Below are positions 8,663 to 15,303 of a DNA stretch of 64,000 nt, piece by piece. Under the pieces are notes generated by a model. The model did no database searches. It was not told where the DNA came from and saw nothing but the letters and a program-made list of their open reading frames with translations. The stretch spans positions 303,674 through 367,673 of the forward strand of contig JACPBQ010000004.1 of the NCBI GenBank assembly GCA_016180235.1. The letters run 5' to 3'. The DNA comes from Candidatus Woesearchaeota archaeon (GTDB lineage Archaea; Nanobdellota; Nanobdellia; Woesearchaeales; GW2011-AR4). Numbering within the stretch: position 1 is the first letter of the stretch; the number at the start of each line of letters is the position of its first letter. A program made the translations under genes and the position numbers.

Positions 8663-9835
8663 TTGAAGAAATCCCAAGGCGGCTTAAATGCAGCCATTTT
8701 GGTGGCAGTCATAGCAGGGCTTATAATTCTGTATATCCTGTTTCTTCCAGAAACCGAGAGAGAAGCATTGCTGGAAAACAAAACAGTCAAAAAATCAACT
8801 GAAGAGAAGGAAGACAAAGATATCCTGCTGAAAGTCTTCCCCAACAGGCTTGAGGAAGAAGAGAATATACAGGACAAAGACATACCAAACATATTCCTCT
8901 TTGAGACCACAAACGCAAAAGTGCTTGAAAGCATAAACCCGTTCATAGCCAGGAAAGGCTGGTTTGACGAGAAAATAAAAACAGCAGCTTTCACCCTGAA
9001 TAACCTTGAAACGACAGACAATGTGATACTTTCATTCAAAGCCAAAAAGCATGACGGCACACTTACAATAACCCTGAATGGAGCGGTTGTCTTTGAGAAT
9101 GAAATTGAGCAGGAGACAGTTGCACCCATAAGCCTGAGAAAAGAACTCCTTAAAGCGGACAACACTCTTGATTTCTCCGTATCTTCAGTAGGCCTTAAGT
9201 TCTGGAAGACAAACGAATACAGCCTAGAAGACGTCAAGATCATAGGAGATATAACCGACAGGAGCAAGCAGGAAAGCAGAAACATATTCACCCTGACGTC
9301 AAAAGAGCTTGCCGGCATAGACGAGGCCGATTTGAGGTTCGTGCCTTACTGCAACAGCGTGGCTGATGTAGGTACACTGGATATCGACATAAACGGAAGG
9401 AATATATTTTCCGCAGTGCCTATATGCGATGATGCGTACAAGCAGCCAATACCGATAGGAATGCTGGATGCAGGAGAAAACAAGATAATATTCAAGACAG
9501 GCAAGGGAAGCTACAGCGTGGAGCAGGTTAAGATAGAATTCAAGGAAAAGGAAGCTGAAAACAAGCTCTATTATTTTGAGGTGAACCAGAGCCAGATAGA
9601 TGAAATTGATGATGGAGACAAAGATGCAATACTAAGGCTTGAGTTCGTTGACGACAAGGAAAACAAGATGGCAGACATCAACATGAACGACCATTTCATA
9701 ACCCTGGATGATGATGAAAGGGTGTTCACAAAGAACGTCAATGACTTTATAGAAGAAGGCAACAATTTTGTTGAGATAAGGCCCAGGACAAGGCTGGACA
9801 TAGTTGAGCTTAGCGTAAGGCTCGAAGATACATAA
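8663..9835 (+). CDS. N-terminally membrane-anchored secreted protein with three ~90-aa internal repeats
   Basis: TTG start preceded by aaaggtga. TM helix AAILVAVIAGLIILYILFL. Three repeats each end in a similar strand (YSLEDVKIIG / YSVEQVKIEF / LDIVELSVRL) and contain an xIxxNG core. Confidence 0.6.
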   Translation: MKKSQGGLNAAILVAVIAGLIILYILFLPETEREALLENKTVKKSTEEKEDKDILLKVFPNRLEEEENIQDKDIPNIFLFETTNAKVLESINPFIARKGWFDEKIKTAAFTLNNLETTDNVILSFKAKKHDGTLTITLNGAVVFENEIEQETVAPISLRKELLKADNTLDFSVSSVGLKFWKTNEYSLEDVKIIGDITDRSKQESRNIFTLTSKELAGIDEADLRFVPYCNSVADVGTLDIDINGRNIFSAVPICDDAYKQPIPIGMLDAGENKIIFKTGKGSYSVEQVKIEFKEKEAENKLYYFEVNQSQIDEIDDGDKDAILRLEFVDDKENKMADINMNDHFITLDDDERVFTKNVNDFIEEGNNFVEIRPRTRLDIVELSVRLEDT

Positions 9836-9879
9836 CAAAAGAGAGGTGGCTTGGGAAGAGTTCTGCCGGATTTGCTTAA

Positions 9880-12429
9880 TTGAAGATGCCAAAAACTTAT
9901 ATTCAGAAATCAAGGAAGGCTTTTAACGGGAAAAAAGGGCAGGCTAACCTTAATCCCGGGTTTGTCACAAGGGTAGCTTCCCATGTCGAAAAGCACACTT
10001 CCGACAAAGGCACTTATTTCCTGGTTTTAGCTTTCATAATATTCCTGATAGACCTGTCAACGACTTTTTTCGGCTTATTTCCCTTAGGGCCAAGGTACGC
10101 GGGATTTGAATGGGTCTGGGGATTTGATTTTGTAAACATTTTAGCAAATATAGTGGCCTCAGGAATCTTCGGGACATTCGCCCTGTTTTTCATAATAGTC
10201 AAGATTGCCAGGAGAGACCTGCAGACATTAGGCGCAGAGGCAGTCAGCTTCGGCTTTTTTGCCATAGTGATGACTTTCTTCATACTCAACAATAACTGGA
10301 TAGGAACCCCAAAGGCAATTATCCATTTTATTTTTATAATAGTCTTTAGCTTTACATTCATAAAGTCCAATGAAGATGCCCCGGCTTTCTATTTTTTCAC
10401 AGCTCTGCTTTTGCTGATAGATTTTTTCGGATACACTTTACTCAGCAATTTAGTGATTTTGAGGTATTTACCTTTTCTCCTGATTTTTGTGATATTTTAC
10501 ATATACGGGAAAACACAAAATGGATGGTCAATAATGTTCGTCATACTTCTGCTGATAGTGCTGTTCATTTTTGCCTACAAGGATGTCAAGGCGCAGGGAG
10601 GTGACTTGTCTTTCATAGCAAAGACTGATGCGCCCACTCTTGAGCAGACCAAAGACGATTTCTTCAAAGGCCTGCAGAACTTCTATAATTCATGGCAGAT
10701 TTCCCTGCAAAGGCAGATAAGGTATGCAATAACCGGAAAAGTGGAGCAAAACCAGTACGAGCCTCTTGGAGTCTATCTTGAGAAAGTAAAATCTGCTGAT
10801 ACCAAGTATTATGAAAATGAAGATGTTGTAATCTGGGGTACTGTAAGGGCAAGAACCCTTGACGACCCGATAAACGTGAAGATTGGATGCTATGTCAGGG
10901 ACGGCAGCAACAGGGTGCAGACAAAAGATGTCGAGCCCCCAACCGCTTTTCCGGTATTTACACTTGAAGAGCAGGACTTTGCATGCACTTTCAAAAACAA
11001 GGACTTTTTAAACATATTAAAATCAGGCTCCAATTCCATAACAGCTTTTGCAGATTTTAATTTCGAGACATTGGCTTTCCTTAAAGTGTATTTCATGGAC
11101 AGGGAAAGATTAAGGGCCATGACCAGGGAAAACCTTGACCCGTTTGACGAATTCGGGATAAAAGACAAAAAGCCTGTGTCAAAATCCACAAACGGGCCAA
11201 CCCATATCGGGATGGAAACAACAAGTCCATTAGTCGGGGTAGGAAGCAGCTATATAACATTCCCGACACTAAGCATGAGCATACAGAGCAACCAGGGATG
11301 GGAGGGCAGGATAAAGAAATTCAGCGAAATAATACTCCTGCTGCCTAAAGGCGTGGGGCTTACAGACCCGCAAACAGACTGCGGAGAGCGGAAATTCACC
11401 GCTTACGATTCCGGGCAGTGCAAAGAAAGTTCCTGCGGGAAAGTCAATAAAGAATGTACAGATGTGTGTGACAAGGGATATCCCGACAGCCAACCCAACA
11501 GCCAATTTGACAGGGATAATTGCAAGGCGTCATGCAATGAGAAGCTGGCAATTTGCCAGAAAGACTGTGATTTCCTGTTCCAGGAGGAAGGGCAGCAATA
11601 TCTCGGCTTTGCATTGGACAAGTCAGACATAGACAAAATAAATACAAAGCTTGCCAAAGATGATTTTAGTGGCAGCGTGCAAAATTTTGAATTCTTCAGA
11701 TGCAAACTGAGCCCAAAACCAGAAGAAGTCCTGGAAAACTCGCCAATAACTACCAAGTCAATAAGGGCCAAGATAAGGTACGATTACACTGTCGAGAAGC
11801 CGGTAGCAGTTAGAATAGAAAAATTAGGGATAGATGAAAGGACTTCAAAAATAGGAGAAGTATCAGTCACAGGAGCATCAGAAACAGAAAATAAGGTAAT
11901 ACAACTGGCAAATTCATTGTCCAGTAACCCGCCTTTGACAGCTTCGATAGCAAATCGGGAAACAAGGTTCGATCATTGCACTGACGGAACATTAATCTGC
12001 GGAACATCCAATCCACAAAATGTAAACTGCAACCCATCCGGAAGCTGCGGAGTAATGCAGATAAACAAAAATGCACATCCCGACTTGTTCACGCTAGGAA
12101 CCACAAGGCTTAATTCGTTTGGATGCCTAACCGGAGAAACTGCATATGACATTGACTGCAACATAAAATCCGGAATAGGTATTCTGCAATCCTATTATAA
12201 CACTTATGGCAATAATAAGGCGCTGTATGAATCCACTGTTGATGCAAAATGCTCTGCTGCTAATAACTTTGAATTGAATGCAAAATATAAAGCATATATA
12301 AATCCGTGGGACAGGGCATTGAGGGCCTACAATGGCTTCGGATGCACTCCTCCGGGAGCAGACGTAAATTATGTGGAGGAAGTAAACAAAATAAAAGATG
12401 CAAGATATTCGGGGAAGGCAGTCTCCTGA
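9880..12429 (+). CDS. Large polytopic membrane protein with ectodomain, Cys-rich stretch and C-terminal SLT-like lytic transglycosylase domain
   Basis: 849-aa ORF. It has roughly 6-8 TM helices in residues ~45-235 and 11 Cys between nt ~11360-11580. The C-terminus carries the SLT motifs NRETRFD (Glu at 11959-11961), CGVMQINKN, NIKSGIGILQSYY and RAYNGFG. Confidence 0.7.
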   Translation: MKMPKTYIQKSRKAFNGKKGQANLNPGFVTRVASHVEKHTSDKGTYFLVLAFIIFLIDLSTTFFGLFPLGPRYAGFEWVWGFDFVNILANIVASGIFGTFALFFIIVKIARRDLQTLGAEAVSFGFFAIVMTFFILNNNWIGTPKAIIHFIFIIVFSFTFIKSNEDAPAFYFFTALLLLIDFFGYTLLSNLVILRYLPFLLIFVIFYIYGKTQNGWSIMFVILLLIVLFIFAYKDVKAQGGDLSFIAKTDAPTLEQTKDDFFKGLQNFYNSWQISLQRQIRYAITGKVEQNQYEPLGVYLEKVKSADTKYYENEDVVIWGTVRARTLDDPINVKIGCYVRDGSNRVQTKDVEPPTAFPVFTLEEQDFACTFKNKDFLNILKSGSNSITAFADFNFETLAFLKVYFMDRERLRAMTRENLDPFDEFGIKDKKPVSKSTNGPTHIGMETTSPLVGVGSSYITFPTLSMSIQSNQGWEGRIKKFSEIILLLPKGVGLTDPQTDCGERKFTAYDSGQCKESSCGKVNKECTDVCDKGYPDSQPNSQFDRDNCKASCNEKLAICQKDCDFLFQEEGQQYLGFALDKSDIDKINTKLAKDDFSGSVQNFEFFRCKLSPKPEEVLENSPITTKSIRAKIRYDYTVEKPVAVRIEKLGIDERTSKIGEVSVTGASETENKVIQLANSLSSNPPLTASIANRETRFDHCTDGTLICGTSNPQNVNCNPSGSCGVMQINKNAHPDLFTLGTTRLNSFGCLTGETAYDIDCNIKSGIGILQSYYNTYGNNKALYESTVDAKCSAANNFELNAKYKAYINPWDRALRAYNGFGCTPPGADVNYVEEVNKIKDARYSGKAVS

Positions 12430-12446
12430 GATAAAATTACACTAAA

Positions 12447-13397
12447 ATGAAAAAAAGCATTATCTTGATTTCAATACTATTGATTTTTATAATAGCCGGC
12501 TGCAAAGGAAGCACAAGCAGCAAGTCAATAACAGATGAAGATGTGAGGAAAGGCGTTGACGGCCTGACAACTGTGTTTATTAATAATGCCCCTCCGGACA
12601 GGGTCTTTGAGCAGAGCGTTTTCCCCATAGGCATCGAGCTCAAGAATAAAGGAGCCTTTGACATCCAAAAGGGCTTTCTCGTGCTTGGGTTCGAGAAGGA
12701 ATATGTAAATGCGGTTTCAGGACAAGAAAAAGAAACATTTGACATAAAAGGAAAATCGATATTCAACCTTAACGGGGACCAGACATTCATAACAGTAAAT
12801 GCAGCGGCAAAGCAGGTAGGCTCGCAAAGCGAAACACATGCATCCACGATATTTGTTACGGCGTGCTACCCTTACAGGACAGTTTTAGGAACGTCAGCCT
12901 GCATCGACACTGACATCTTTGGCCAGCAGCTGAGGAAAAAAGCGTGTCAGGCAAAAGACCTGCAGTTTGACAAGGGGCAGGGAGGCCCTGTAGCAATAAC
13001 AAAAGTAGAGGTAAGGATGCTGCCTGACGCAGACAATGACCCAAACAAAATTATACCCCATTTCATAATATACCTGGAAAACAAGGGAACCGGAGAGGTA
13101 GTTGCTGCAGACAAGGTAGAAGATGTGTGCTCGAAAAAGCCACTTGGATTCAAAGATTTCAATAAGGTAACTGTGAAAGCATCATTATCAGACAAAGAGC
13201 TTAACTGCAATCTTGGAGAAGCAGAAAATTCCGAATCCAGGCTAAGGGAGAAAAAAGATGTTGTAAGATGCACGCTTGCGGAGGGCATAGACAGAAACAG
13301 GGATGCATTCACCTCACCCTTGAAGATAGAGGTCGATTATGGTTACACATTGACAATATCGAAAGATATAACAATAGAAAAGATTTTGACATATTAA
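12447..13397 (+). CDS. Secreted lipobox protein, paralog A (unknown family)
   Basis: Signal peptide plus lipobox IIAGC. Conserved blocks shared with the next gene: ACYPY...ACID, GGPVAITKVE, SPLKIEVDYGYT. Confidence 0.6.
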   Translation: MKKSIILISILLIFIIAGCKGSTSSKSITDEDVRKGVDGLTTVFINNAPPDRVFEQSVFPIGIELKNKGAFDIQKGFLVLGFEKEYVNAVSGQEKETFDIKGKSIFNLNGDQTFITVNAAAKQVGSQSETHASTIFVTACYPYRTVLGTSACIDTDIFGQQLRKKACQAKDLQFDKGQGGPVAITKVEVRMLPDADNDPNKIIPHFIIYLENKGTGEVVAADKVEDVCSKKPLGFKDFNKVTVKASLSDKELNCNLGEAENSESRLREKKDVVRCTLAEGIDRNRDAFTSPLKIEVDYGYTLTISKDITIEKILTY

Positions 13398-13398
13398 T

Positions 13399-14382
13399 AT
13401 GGCCAGAAATACAGGCATAAAGCTCGGAATCTTTTTTTTCATTATACTTTTAATTCTTGTTTCAGGATGCCAGGCAAAAACAGGAAAGCAGAGCAGCAAA
13501 GACCCTTCAGCAGGGACAGATGGCTTAATAATAAATTTCCTGGCAAACAATCCTCAGGATAATTACATAGTGACAGATGAGCAGGAAGAGCCTATCTCCA
13601 TAATCCTGGAGCTTAGAAACAAGGGATCCTATCCAAGAGACAATGATGTTAATGAGCTTAGCAGAGGCCAGGTTTACATAAGCGGCTTTGACGGTAACAT
13701 CATACACATGGAAGAGGCTGAAAAAAGGCTCGACAGGCAGTTCCTGGAAGGGAGAAGCCCGATAAACCCCGAAGGAGGATTTGACACGATTGAATTCAAG
13801 GGAAACATATACACTTCCGGAATTGTCATAGAAAAATATGAGCCGACTATTTTAGCTACTTTGTGCTATCCTTACGCGACAAAAGCAAGCCCTTCAGCCT
13901 GCATAGACCCTTTTCCATTTGATCAGAAACAGAAGAAAGTGTGCAAAATCGGAAGCCAGACCCTGACAAGCCAGGGGGCACCAATAGCAATAACGAGCAT
14001 TGACCAGGAAGCATCAAGCAGCAAGATACAGTTCAAGATAAACCTCAAGAACGCAGGAAAAGGAGACATAATAAAGATAGAGTCACTGGAGAAATGCAAC
14101 CCTACAGGAGGCCAGGCTCTAGAAAGAAATGATTTTGACAGGATAGAGCTGGTAAGGGCAGAAGCCGGATTAGTTCCGTTGAGCTGCGGCCCATTTACAG
14201 AAGGCAATGGCATAATCAGGATGAGCAACGGGCAGGGATTCATAATATGCAGCATCAATAAGGAAGACTACCAGGATACAAAATCAGCATATACGACCCC
14301 ATTAAACCTTGAATTCAGGTATGGCTACAGGACTACTGCTTCAAAGCCGATAAAGATAACAAAGATAACTTCAACAGGCTGA
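13399..14382 (+). CDS. Secreted lipobox protein, paralog B (unknown family)
   Basis: Signal peptide plus lipobox LVSGC. Blocks LCYPY...ACID, QGAPIAITSID and TPLNLEFRYGYR are collinear with paralog A. The start is 1 nt after the upstream stop. Confidence 0.6.
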   Translation: MARNTGIKLGIFFFIILLILVSGCQAKTGKQSSKDPSAGTDGLIINFLANNPQDNYIVTDEQEEPISIILELRNKGSYPRDNDVNELSRGQVYISGFDGNIIHMEEAEKRLDRQFLEGRSPINPEGGFDTIEFKGNIYTSGIVIEKYEPTILATLCYPYATKASPSACIDPFPFDQKQKKVCKIGSQTLTSQGAPIAITSIDQEASSSKIQFKINLKNAGKGDIIKIESLEKCNPTGGQALERNDFDRIELVRAEAGLVPLSCGPFTEGNGIIRMSNGQGFIICSINKEDYQDTKSAYTTPLNLEFRYGYRTTASKPIKITKITSTG

Positions 14383-14608: not shown

Positions 14609-15303
14609 ATGATAGTAAAAGAAGAGTTTTTGAGCAAGCTAAGAAGATATTTTTCTTTGAATCTGTACGAAGTAAAGATATGGACTGCTCTGCTCTCAAG
14701 AGGAGTAAGCACAGCAGGAGAGCTTTCTGACATAGCCAATGTTCCAAGAAGCAGGAGCTATGACATGATGCAAAAGAAGCGGTAAAAAGGCTTGAAGATC
14801 TTAAAAAAACAGACATAGTGAATGAGCTCAATACTCTGCATACGCAAGGTGTTGAATTAGTTGAGCCCGCAGATCTTTCCGGCTCTTTGAAGGGAAGGCA
14901 CAACCTCTACAATCATTTGGAGCTTACGATAAGGAATGCTGAAAATTCTGTTGACATAATGACCACGAGCCAGGGTCTTATGAGGAAGATAGAAGGCTTC
15001 AAGCCAACTTTTGAGAAATTAAAGAAGAGGGGGGTAAAAATAAGGATTGCAGCTCCCTTGACAAAAGAAACAATGGCAGCAGTCAAGGATATAGGCTCTG
15101 TAGCAGAGATAAGGAACACTGACTCAAAGGCAAGGTTTGTCATTGTTGACGGCAAGGAATTGATATTCATGATAATGGATGACCAGGAAGTCCATCCGAC
15201 TTACGATGTAGGGATATGGGTGAACAGCCCATTCTTCTCCAGCGCACTGGAAAGCCTGTTCAGCACTGCATGGAAAGGAATGAAGACTACAGCAACAAAA
15301 TAA
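14609..15303 (+). pseudogene. TrmB-family transcriptional regulator disrupted by an out-of-frame internal deletion
   Basis: A 58-codon frame from the ATG at 14609 encodes a wHTH up to VPRSRSYD and stops at 14783-14785. The remainder (AKEAVKRLEDLKK... to 15303) is open in another frame from 14764. Confidence 0.6.

What the first reader, a model, noticed from the sequence alone, without database searches (positions are those of the whole stretch)
11896..12429. Lytic transglycosylase (SLT)-like domain fused to a polytopic archaeal membrane protein
The last ~177 residues of the 849-aa protein carry the SLT / goose-lysozyme-like motif series in the correct order. These are the catalytic-Glu context ANRETRFD (Glu codon 11959-11961), SCGVMQINKN, DIDCNIKSGIGILQSYY and ALRAYNGFG. 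The substrate of this fold is the murein glycan strand, which archaea do not make. No pseudomurein-related gene is visible here either. The domain also contains about 9 Cys, unusual for SLT domains but consistent with the nearby DsbB/Trx system. An enzyme displayed on the archaeal surface and aimed at bacterial cell wall would fit an episymbiotic or predatory lifestyle.
Basis: partly seen in the sequence, partly recalled or inferred. Interest (0 to 1): 0.65.

Follow-up and report, generated by a model that had tools for sequence, protein, structure and literature searches.

The report
Membrane-anchored bacterial-wall cutter in DPANN archaeon
A tiny Woesearchaeota-type archaeon, which makes no bacterial-type cell wall, carries at the outer tip of a membrane-anchored surface protein an apparently intact enzyme of the kind that cuts the sugar strands of bacterial cell wall; the gene is real, but such enzymes are already reported in these archaea.

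Summary
ORF 9880-12429 (+) encodes 849 aa, and its last ~180 residues are a divergent SLT/GH23 lysozyme-like domain.

- **Domain identity.** Alone it passes Pfam SLT (24.3 bits; cut-off 21.3). A 38-sequence profile hits MltC (E 1.7e-6) and Slt70 (1.3e-4). It puts invariant Glu694 (codon 11959-11961) on Slt70's catalytic Glu478. An AlphaFold model (pLDDT 89.6) matches almost only GH23 structures.
- **Anatomy.** K/R-rich N-tail, 7 TM helices, beta-sandwich stalk, SLT tip. All 20 Cys lie in the predicted outer part.
- **Host genome.** A 1.04-Mb DPANN genome with no Mur-ligase hit and two copies of the domain.
- **Carrier.** The 7-TM/beta-core carrier and its four-gene neighbourhood are conserved. 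It occurs in 137 of 301 sampled genomes of the phylum; only 8 of these fuse this domain to it.
- **C-terminal slot.** Other orthologues carry canonical SLT, SLT plus Amidase_3, other domains, or nothing. This swapping of murein-specific enzymes is the best evidence that bacterial wall is the target.

Activity, substrate and ecological role are inferred, not shown. Murein lytic transglycosylases in Woese-/Pacearchaeota are published (Castelle 2021; Vigneron 2022). This is therefore a new member of a known kind, with a carrier I did not find described.

The parts
9880..12429 (+). Whole gene: 849-aa membrane-anchored protein with C-terminal SLT domain (start TTG 9880, or ATG 9886)
   Evidence: full-length AlphaFold model pLDDT 86.4, pTM 0.53
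9880..10008 (+). N-terminal tail, residues 1-43, predicted cytoplasmic (10 K/R, low model confidence)
10009..10593 (+). Polytopic membrane block, residues 44-238, seven predicted TM helices, so the C-terminus is outside
   Evidence: hydropathy, model helices, loop charges
10768..11820 (+). Conserved beta-rich ectodomain core, residues 297-647. It includes a Cys-rich helical hairpin (residues 511-567, nt 11410-11580). This is the carrier part shared by orthologues with and without SLT.
   Evidence: Foldseek gives only generic Ig-like/beta-sandwich matches.
11881..12408 (+). SLT/GH23 lysozyme-like catalytic domain, residues 668-843, with 8 Cys
11959..11961 (+). Codon of Glu694, the predicted catalytic acid/base (E-T variant of the family-1 'ES' motif). 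It lies at the C-terminal end of helix 684-695.
   Evidence: Invariant in alignment A2. Aligned to Slt70 Glu478 and to the MltC 'TES' motif. Helix position.
12049..12066 (+). GVMQIN (residues 724-729), the 'GLMQ' motif on the beta-hairpin. Ser722 occupies the position of hen lysozyme Asp52.
12325..12345 (+). AYNGFGC (residues 816-822), the 'AYNxG' motif of family-1 lytic transglycosylases
8663..9835 (+). Upstream gene of the conserved module: 390-aa N-terminally anchored protein. Its N-terminus (KKSQGG-LNAAILVAVIAGLIILY) resembles the pilin-like proteins elsewhere in the genome.
12447..14382 (+). Downstream genes of the conserved module: two paralogous lipobox proteins (316 and 327 aa; 29% identity, E 8e-30). 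Relatives have three.

Best explanation
The gene encodes a surface-displayed glycan-strand cutter for bacterial peptidoglycan.

**Anatomy.** A cytoplasmic K/R-rich tail and seven TM helices anchor the protein in the archaeal membrane. A roughly 400-residue beta-sandwich stalk follows, with a helical hairpin probably stapled by disulfides. It projects a 180-residue GH23/SLT domain outward.

**Chemistry.** The domain uses a single catalytic Glu (Glu694, in ANRETRF) to cleave the beta-1,4 MurNAc-GlcNAc bond. It has Ser, not Asp, at the hen-lysozyme Asp52 position. It therefore most likely works as a lytic transglycosylase or goose-type enzyme, not as a two-carboxylate lysozyme. Its 8 cysteines are presumably oxidised by the DsbB/thioredoxin-like pair elsewhere in the window.

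**Role.** The archaeon has no murein of its own and the enzyme is tethered. It can therefore act only on a bacterial wall in physical contact: to breach it, to hold on to it, or to release material from it.

**Shown:** domain identity, conserved active-site residues, architecture, synteny, and swapping of murein enzymes in the same slot.
**Inferred:** topology, activity, substrate and ecological role.
For: **Domain identity**
- Pfam SLT hit above the cut-off for the isolated domain, and in 15 of 16 homologues.
- Profile hits to MltC (E 1.7e-6 and 3.5e-5) and Slt70 (1.3e-4). The family 'akqESsf' motif is aligned on Slt70 'ARQES', which contains Glu478.
- Glu694 is invariant in 38 sequences whose mean column identity is 24%.
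- Among 89 family domains the residue after the Glu is S in 73, T in 8 and N in 5. The GxMQ and AYNG motifs are also conserved.
- Domain model pLDDT 89.6. Ranks 1-48 of the PDB Foldseek list are GH23-type lysozyme-fold enzymes. Named BFVD hits are LT_GEWL/SLT proteins, tail lysins or endolysins.

**Outside location**
- 10 K/R in the N-tail, 7 TM helices, no Cys in residues 1-336 and 20 Cys in 337-849.

**Murein as target**
- The same carrier slot holds canonical SLT (P0218, 75.6 bits) and SLT plus Amidase_3 (P0217, 73.7 bits) in orthologues.
- P0007 carries Amidase_2 behind the same Cys-rich SLT domain.

**No endogenous substrate**
- No Mur_ligase_M hit in the own genome.

**Published parallel**
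- PMC8204110 and PMC9723730.
Against:
- Structural similarity is moderate (TM 0.35-0.47), and a GH23 chitinase gives the best target-normalised TM score (0.59). Fold alone therefore does not exclude a chitin-like substrate.
- The motif is E-T rather than the canonical E-S.
- Many carrier orthologues lack any enzyme tail. The carrier's main function is therefore something else and remains unknown.
- The genome shows no hit to LdcA-type peptidase, Amidase_2 or NlpC/P60. A feeding role thus has no visible downstream pathway.
- The genome is only 81% complete.
- No bacterial host is known for this lineage.
Confidence: 0.7

Rival explanations
1. The domain cuts a non-murein beta-1,4-linked GlcNAc polymer. 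Candidates are chitin-like material, the archaeon's own surface glycan, or an archaeal host's envelope glycan. It would then serve envelope remodelling or attachment to an archaeal host.
For: - GH23 includes a chitinase, and that structure (3w6f) gives the best target-normalised TM score and lowest rmsd among the hits.
- The carrier sits in a conserved envelope-type operon next to housekeeping genes.
- Known DPANN hosts are archaea (my own knowledge).
Against: - The same slot and family recruit MurNAc-L-Ala amidases (Amidase_3, Amidase_2), whose bond exists only in murein.
- Sequence-profile hits are to murein lytic transglycosylases and lysozymes, not chitinases.
- Only 8 of 137 carrier-bearing genomes fuse this domain to the carrier, so it is not needed for the carrier's own assembly.
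- The pseudomurein glycan is beta-1,3-linked and lysozyme-resistant (established knowledge).
Confidence: 0.12
2. The domain is a catalytically weak or inactive murein-binding module. It would work as an adhesin that holds the archaeon on a bacterial surface.
For: - The motif is E-T instead of E-S.
- Other orthologues carry non-enzymatic tails in the same slot: fn3, beta/gamma-crystallin and a weak, sub-threshold DUF5050 match. This suggests that binding modules fit there too.
- Castelle et al. also propose 'attachment' (PMC8204110).
Against: - The catalytic Glu is invariant across the family at 24% mean column identity, and the GxMQ and AYNG motifs are conserved. This is the pattern expected of an active enzyme.
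- Thr for Ser is a conservative change found in 8 of 89 members.
Confidence: 0.1
3. The enzyme scavenges dead bacterial wall debris as a nutrient source and is not used to attack living cells.
For: Peptidoglycan of dead bacteria has been proposed as an amino-acid source for Pacearchaeota (PMC11537232).
Against: - The enzyme is membrane-tethered, not secreted.
- The genome shows no Peptidase_S66, Amidase_2 or NlpC/P60 hit to process muropeptides.
- The second copy sits at the end of a cluster of proteins with pilin-like N-termini, which suggests contact-dependent use.
Confidence: 0.08

Closest known systems
[quoted passage not shown] 2021, PMC8204110; GH23 genes of Vigneron et al. 2022, PMC9723730; earlier Rinke 2013 and Castelle 2015 as cited there)
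   Same: - Same organism group.
- Same enzyme domain.
- Same proposed role: binding or degrading bacterial wall.
- Same patchy distribution. The domain occurs in 56 of 301 sampled genomes of the phylum. Frames carrying it reach 2,838 aa.
   Different: - Here the domain sits on an 849-aa 7-TM carrier with a conserved beta-core, inside a conserved four-gene module.
- The C-terminal slot of the carrier is exchangeable.
- I found no description of this carrier in the papers read. I could not check whether fam00969 includes this protein.
Bacterial family-1 lytic transglycosylases (Pfam SLT PF01464, CAZy GH23): Slt70, MltC, MltE, MltF
   Same: - Lysozyme-like fold.
- Catalytic Glu at the end of a helix, followed by Ser/Thr.
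- GLMQ-type and AYNxG motifs.
- Profile E-values of 1e-6 to 1e-4.
   Different: - Only about 12-17% identity in the structural alignments.
- A Cys-rich insertion of about 13 residues (HC.DG...CG..N..V.CN) lies between the Glu and the GxMQ motif. The C-terminal part also carries extra helices.
- 8 Cys in the domain.
- Motif-based scan found it only in DPANN archaea (32 of 32 loci).
- The host has no murein, so the role cannot be housekeeping wall turnover.
Specialised lytic transglycosylases of bacterial envelope-spanning machines (EtgA of type III secretion, VirB1, FlgJ) and C-type lysozyme
   Same: EtgA and hen lysozyme are recovered by the family profile around the beta-hairpin (E 0.0025 and about 0.05). 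A minority of family members carry Asp at the hen-lysozyme Asp52 / EtgA Asp position (D[FYW]GVMQIN; 11 of 89). The paralogue in this genome is one of them.
   Different: The window protein has Ser722 at that position. The archaeon has no wall of its own to open, so any hole-making would be in another cell's wall.
Bacterial polymorphic effector/toxin systems and murein-hydrolase effectors (e.g. the T6SS effector Tse3, seen among the fold hits)
   Same: A conserved N-terminal carrier has a variable C-terminal enzymatic module that targets murein. Tse3 appears in the fold list.
   Different: - No secretion apparatus or immunity gene is evident.
- The carrier is an integral membrane protein that is not released.
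- Many carriers have no enzymatic tail.

Membership tests
SLT / GH23 family-1 lytic transglycosylase (Pfam PF01464) | Score at or above Pfam's gathering cut-off (21.3 bits) | tested here: met
   The isolated domain scores 24.3 bits, E 2.4e-5. The genome search gives 24.4 bits 'with its neighbours in the frame'. In the full-length protein the score is only 19.0 bits.
SLT / GH23 family-1 lytic transglycosylase (Pfam PF01464) | Catalytic Glu followed by Ser ('ES' motif), aligned with Slt70 Glu478 | tested here: met
   Glu694 is invariant in A2. The family motif is aligned on Slt70 'ARQES'. The window protein has E-T, as do 8 of 89 members; 73 of 89 have E-S.
SLT / GH23 family-1 lytic transglycosylase (Pfam PF01464) | 'GLMQ' and 'AYNxG' motifs in order after the Glu | tested here: met
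   GVMQIN at residues 724-729 and AYNGFG at 816-821. Both are conserved in the family. That these motifs define family 1 is my own knowledge (Blackburn & Clarke 2001).
SLT / GH23 family-1 lytic transglycosylase (Pfam PF01464) | Lysozyme-like alpha+beta fold with the Glu at the C-terminal end of a helix facing the groove | tested here: inconclusive
   The top Foldseek hits are GH23-type (probability up to 1.00), but TM scores are 0.35-0.47. Glu694 lies at the end of helix 684-695.
SLT / GH23 family-1 lytic transglycosylase (Pfam PF01464) | Produces 1,6-anhydroMurNAc from murein | not testable with these tools
   This needs an enzyme assay with LC-MS analysis of the products.
DPANN large extracellular murein-like LT proteins (fam00969, Castelle 2021) | Woese-/Pacearchaeota protein with a murein-LT domain, predicted extracellular | tested here: met
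   Homologues are named Woesearchaeota, Nanoarchaeota or Pacearchaeota. Formal membership in fam00969 was not checked.
Polymorphic effector with exchangeable C-terminal module | Conserved carrier with different C-terminal domains in orthologues at the same locus | tested here: met
   Among 65 carrier orthologues: 27 carry the Cys-rich SLT, 2 carry canonical SLT (one with Amidase_3), about 14 have no tail, and the rest have other tails. Synteny is conserved.
Polymorphic effector with exchangeable C-terminal module | Cognate immunity gene and a release or delivery step | tested here: not met
   The downstream genes are conserved lipobox paralogues that are present whatever the tail. No cleavage or release signal was seen. 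An organism without murein would not need immunity.

The most novel reading that the evidence does not exclude
The conserved four-gene module is an undescribed Woesearchaeal cell-surface apparatus. It comprises a 390-aa protein with a pilin-like N-terminus, the 7-TM/beta-core carrier, and two or three lipobox paralogues. The carrier's C-terminal slot would be a polymorphic 'warhead' position, loaded in some lineages with murein-cutting enzymes: the Cys-rich SLT, canonical SLT, or SLT plus amidase. Together with a second SLT copy carried at the end of a pilin-like gene cluster in the same genome, it would give these archaea a contact-dependent, cross-domain tool for opening bacterial walls. That would imply bacterial hosts or prey for part of the Woesearchaeales.
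Probability: 0.3. Interest if true: 0.75.

Novelty: new member of a known kind. Interest (0 to 1): 0.38.

Why it matters
Whether some DPANN archaea live on or prey on bacteria, rather than on other archaea, is an open question. So far it rests only on gene annotations. This protein offers a compact domain of about 190 residues with a clear predicted active site, Glu694, which could be expressed and tested on bacterial sacculi.

The carrier architecture suggests the enzyme works only at cell-cell contact. The exchange of different murein-specific enzymes at one slot of a conserved carrier is stronger comparative evidence for murein as the target than a single annotation. The general claim is already published, however, so the added value is anatomical detail and a testable construct, not a new principle.

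Tried and rejected
- **Single-sequence PDB search.** phmmer of the domain against PDB found nothing relevant. Only family profiles worked.
- **Annotation libraries.** NCBIfam gave no family for the protein, its paralogue or the neighbours. Pfam gave nothing for the N-terminal membrane block or the beta-core.
- **Full-length fold search.** It returned only generic Ig-like/beta-sandwich matches for the core (MSCRAMM adhesins, complement MG domains, transglutaminase barrels). These give no functional lead.
- **Genome-collection scan.** Alignment A2 was too diverse for the scan, so A1 was used instead.
- **Phage origin.** One weak IMG/VR locus, and BFVD structures no closer than the PDB ones. No recognisable recent phage or bacterial donor was found. 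I did not build a tree, because the nearest bacterial sequences are too distant to root one meaningfully.
- **Apparent non-DPANN carriers.** Six loci carry the label 'uncultured Methanosarcinales archaeon'. Two of the four I checked coincide with genomes of the window's own family or order in the phylum sample. The checked genomes are 0.8-2.1 Mb. The labels therefore look unreliable.
- **Pilin-like cluster.** Pfam recognised no pilin family in the cluster around the paralogue. 'Pilin-like' rests on N-terminal sequence pattern only.
- **Muropeptide-processing enzymes in the own genome.** Peptidase_S66, Amidase_2 and NlpC/P60 all gave no hit.
- **Groove geometry.** Model coordinates are not exposed in the Python box, so the position of the Glu in the groove could not be measured.
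Full report
**1. Observation**

The window contains an 849-codon ORF at 9880-12429 on the + strand. It opens with TTG-AAG-ATG, so the real start may be the ATG at 9886. The finding's coordinates, 11896-12429, correspond to residues 673-849.

The four quoted motifs are present in the stated order:
- ANRETRFDHC, with Glu694 at codon 11959-11961.
- SCGVMQINKN.
- DIDCNIKSGIGILQSYY.
- ALRAYNGFG.

The domain has 8 cysteines, not about 9. The whole protein has 20, and none lies in residues 1-336.

**2. Is it an SLT/lysozyme-like domain?**

Sequence evidence:
- The full-length protein scores only 19.0 bits on Pfam SLT, below the 21.3-bit cut-off.
- The isolated C-terminal 199 residues score 24.3 bits (E 2.4e-5). 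15 of 16 homologous domains also hit SLT.
- A single-sequence search of PDB found nothing relevant.
- A profile of 38 diverse family members (alignment A2, mean column identity 24%) hits MltC (E 1.7e-6 and 3.5e-5) and Slt70 (1.3e-4). EtgA and C-type lysozymes follow more weakly.
- In those alignments the family's 'akqESsf' motif lies on Slt70 'ARQES'. Counting from the printed coordinates, that Glu is Slt70 Glu478. That Glu478 is the catalytic residue is my own knowledge.
- Glu694 is one of only eight invariant columns in A2.
- Among 89 family domains, the residue after the Glu is Ser in 73, Thr in 8 (including this protein) and Asn in 5.

Structure evidence:
- An AlphaFold2 model of the domain has mean pLDDT 89.6.
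- Ranks 1-48 of the Foldseek PDB list are GH23-type lysozyme-fold enzymes: MltF, goose-type lysozymes, Slt70, MltE, a GH23 chitinase, phiKZ gp144 and the muramidase effector Tse3. Probability is up to 1.00, but TM scores are only 0.35-0.47.
- Named hits in the viral structure library are LT_GEWL/SLT proteins, tail lysins and endolysins, with similar scores.
- In the full-length model Glu694 sits at the C-terminal end of helix 684-695, and GVMQIN lies on the following beta-hairpin. This is the arrangement known for lysozyme-type enzymes.
- I could not inspect the groove, because model coordinates are not exposed.

The fold and active-site assignment is well supported. The family is a divergent branch. 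It has a Cys-rich insertion of about 13 residues between the Glu and the GxMQ motif, and extra helices at the C-terminus.

**3. The rest of the protein**

The full-length model was built from 65 orthologues (pLDDT 86.4, pTM 0.53). It shows:
- a disordered N-tail (residues 1-43);
- helices spanning residues 44-238;
- a long helix (254-290);
- a beta-rich core (297-647) containing a helical hairpin (511-567) that carries several of the cysteines;
- a short linker;
- the SLT domain (668-843).

Three features argue for an N-in, C-out topology, but this is an inference:
- the N-tail has 10 Lys/Arg;
- there are seven hydrophobic helices with very short loops;
- all 20 Cys lie after residue 336.

The core matches only generic Ig-like beta-sandwich proteins. 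Pfam and NCBIfam give nothing for the membrane block or the core.

**4. Organism and genome**

- Named homologues come from Candidatus Woesearchaeota, Nanoarchaeota and Pacearchaeota.
- The window lies in a 1.04-Mb, 9-contig assembly that is 80.75% complete.
- The genome has no match to Mur_ligase_M, while 12 of 14 control genomes do, including two archaea. There is therefore no sign of murein or pseudomurein synthesis.
- It has two SLT-type domains: this gene and a 561-aa paralogue (P0013) at C9:248171-249856.
- It has no match to Peptidase_S66, Amidase_2 or NlpC/P60.

**5. Relatives and context**

The gene order is kept in Woesearchaeota contigs whose SLT domain is only 38-45% identical:
- pelota (-);
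- a protein of about 390 aa, N-terminally anchored (+);
- the carrier (+);
- two or three lipobox paralogues of about 320-343 aa (+).

The two lipobox proteins in the window are paralogues (29% identity, E 8e-30).

A search with residues 1-650 found 72 orthologues of the carrier. The 65 that were aligned divide as follows:
- 27 carry the Cys-rich SLT.
- About 14 end right after the core.
- The rest carry other tails:
  - canonical SLT (P0218, 75.6 bits);
  - canonical SLT plus Amidase_3 (P0217, 27.8 and 73.7 bits);
  - a weak phage-tail-lysozyme match (P0176, below the cut-off);
  - beta/gamma-crystallin;
  - fn3;
  - a weak, sub-threshold DUF5050 match (25.2 bits against a 27-bit cut-off).

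In the paralogue family, P0007 carries Amidase_2 behind the same SLT domain.

In an even sample of 301 genomes of the phylum:
- the carrier core occurs in 137;
- the Cys-rich SLT occurs in 56;
- comparing coordinates, only 8 genomes have the two on the same frame.

The SLT is therefore an accessory module on a widespread carrier. Murein-specific enzymes of different families have been placed in the same slot.

A motif-based scan of one genome per species (185,579 species) found 32 loci. None carries a bacterial label:
- 23 are labelled Woesearchaeota, Nanoarchaeota/Nanoarchaeia, Pacearchaeota or Aenigmatarchaeota.
- 3 are labelled only 'archaeon'.
- 6 are labelled 'uncultured Methanosarcinales archaeon'.

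I checked four of the six 'Methanosarcinales' loci. Two coincide with genomes of the window's own family or order in the phylum sample, and the checked genomes are 0.8-2.1 Mb. Only one weak viral contig matched. No recent bacterial or phage donor is recognisable.

**6. Mechanism**

The best-supported reading is a membrane-tethered, outward-facing enzyme that cleaves the MurNAc-GlcNAc bond of bacterial peptidoglycan, with Glu694 as the single acid/base.

At the position of hen-lysozyme Asp52 (two residues before the Gly of GxMQ; alignment) this protein has Ser722. So do 61 of 89 family members. Eleven have Asp, as in hen lysozyme and EtgA, and the paralogue P0013 is one of them. The window protein therefore looks like a lytic transglycosylase or goose-type enzyme. 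The paralogue might be a true hydrolase. This distinction is inference.

The enzyme is tethered and the cell has no murein. It can therefore act only on another cell's wall at contact.

The evidence does not settle the purpose:
- **Breaching.** This fits the absence of any visible muropeptide-processing enzymes.
- **Anchoring.** This is not excluded.
- **Feeding.** This has no visible downstream pathway.

**7. Rival explanations**

- **A chitin-like or archaeal glycan substrate.** It is not excluded by fold, since a GH23 chitinase gives the best target-normalised TM score. The amidase fusions and the profile hits argue against it.
- **A binding-only role.** The invariant Glu and conserved motifs argue against it.
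- **Scavenging of dead wall material.** Tethering and the lack of downstream enzymes argue against it.

**8. Comparison with what is known**

- Castelle et al. [quoted passage not shown] They propose binding or degradation of bacterial walls and cite earlier sightings (Rinke 2013; Castelle 2015).
- Vigneron et al. 2022 (PMC9723730) report GH23 genes in Woesearchaeota MAGs and propose predation.
- Later papers repeat the point (PMC10936187, PMC11537232, PMC12352652).
- None of the passages I read reports an enzyme assay. None describes this 7-TM carrier, its operon or the exchangeable slot.

Earlier notes of this scan describe the same theme in other genomes. One describes what looks like the same carrier with SLT plus Amidase_2, and several describe pilin-type carriers. 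I treated these as leads only. My own searches arrived at the same picture for this locus.

**9. Verdict**

The principle is already published, so this is a new member of a known kind. Its useful extras are a defined carrier architecture, slot polymorphism as comparative evidence for the substrate, and a compact domain with a named catalytic residue for a direct assay.

Noticed in passing
G000:C9:248171-249856 (-) = L039:8171-9856 (outside the window): A second copy of the Cys-rich SLT domain (P0013, 561 aa, 42% identical over the domain) is the last gene of a co-directional run. The run holds about 12 small proteins whose N-termini look pilin-like: a short basic stretch, G/A, then about 20 hydrophobic residues, e.g. 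NRKAQG-LSINTIIIAAIALIVLVV. Pfam recognises no pilin family there. P0013 has Asp at the hen-lysozyme Asp52 position (GKDFGVMQIN), unlike the window protein.
   Followed up: partly
window 8663-9835 (+): The 390-aa upstream protein has a strongly conserved N-terminus: MKKSQGG-LNAAILVAVIAGLIILYILF. It is the same in orthologues at L001 and L004 and resembles the pilin-like N-termini of the cluster around the paralogue. It may be a class III (prepilin-type) signal. No cleavage-site test was made.
   Followed up: partly
window 12447-14382 (+); L001:10830-13998; L004:10684-13703: The two lipobox proteins (IIAGC, LVSGC) are paralogues (29% identity, E 8e-30). Relatives have three copies in the same place. 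Their C-terminal '...Y.Y...I.K.' strand weakly resembles the end of the carrier's beta-core (E 0.06). No family is assigned.
   Followed up: partly
L022, L017 (genome-contig loci): Six MAG records are titled 'uncultured Methanosarcinales archaeon'. L022 and L017 coincide by contig and coordinates with genomes G181 and G178, which the genome tool places in the window's own family and order. The four genomes I checked are 0.8-2.1 Mb. The NCBI labels look wrong.
   Followed up: yes
P0212 (carrier orthologue, 690 aa): A source names this orthologue 'rod shape-determining protein MreD [bacterium]'. NCBIfam gives it no family at E <= 1. The name and the 'bacterium' label are probably annotation errors.
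   Followed up: partly
window 14818-15303 (+): The TrmB-family ORF here is only 161 aa and matches only positions 6-134 of the 233-position Regulator_TrmB profile. The syntenic TrmB gene in L001 is 273 aa.
   Followed up: no
window 9880-9888: The ORF begins TTG AAG ATG. The nearest purine-rich stretch (GAGAGGTGG, 9842-9850) is about 30 nt or more upstream of either candidate start, so the start codon is uncertain.
   Followed up: no
P0176 tail (carrier orthologue): The 364-aa tail of this orthologue has a weak Phage_lysozyme2 match (E 4e-4, below the cut-off). Before it lies a Cys/His-rich segment with an 'HTH' triplet that might be a metallopeptidase remnant. It is unassigned.
   Followed up: no
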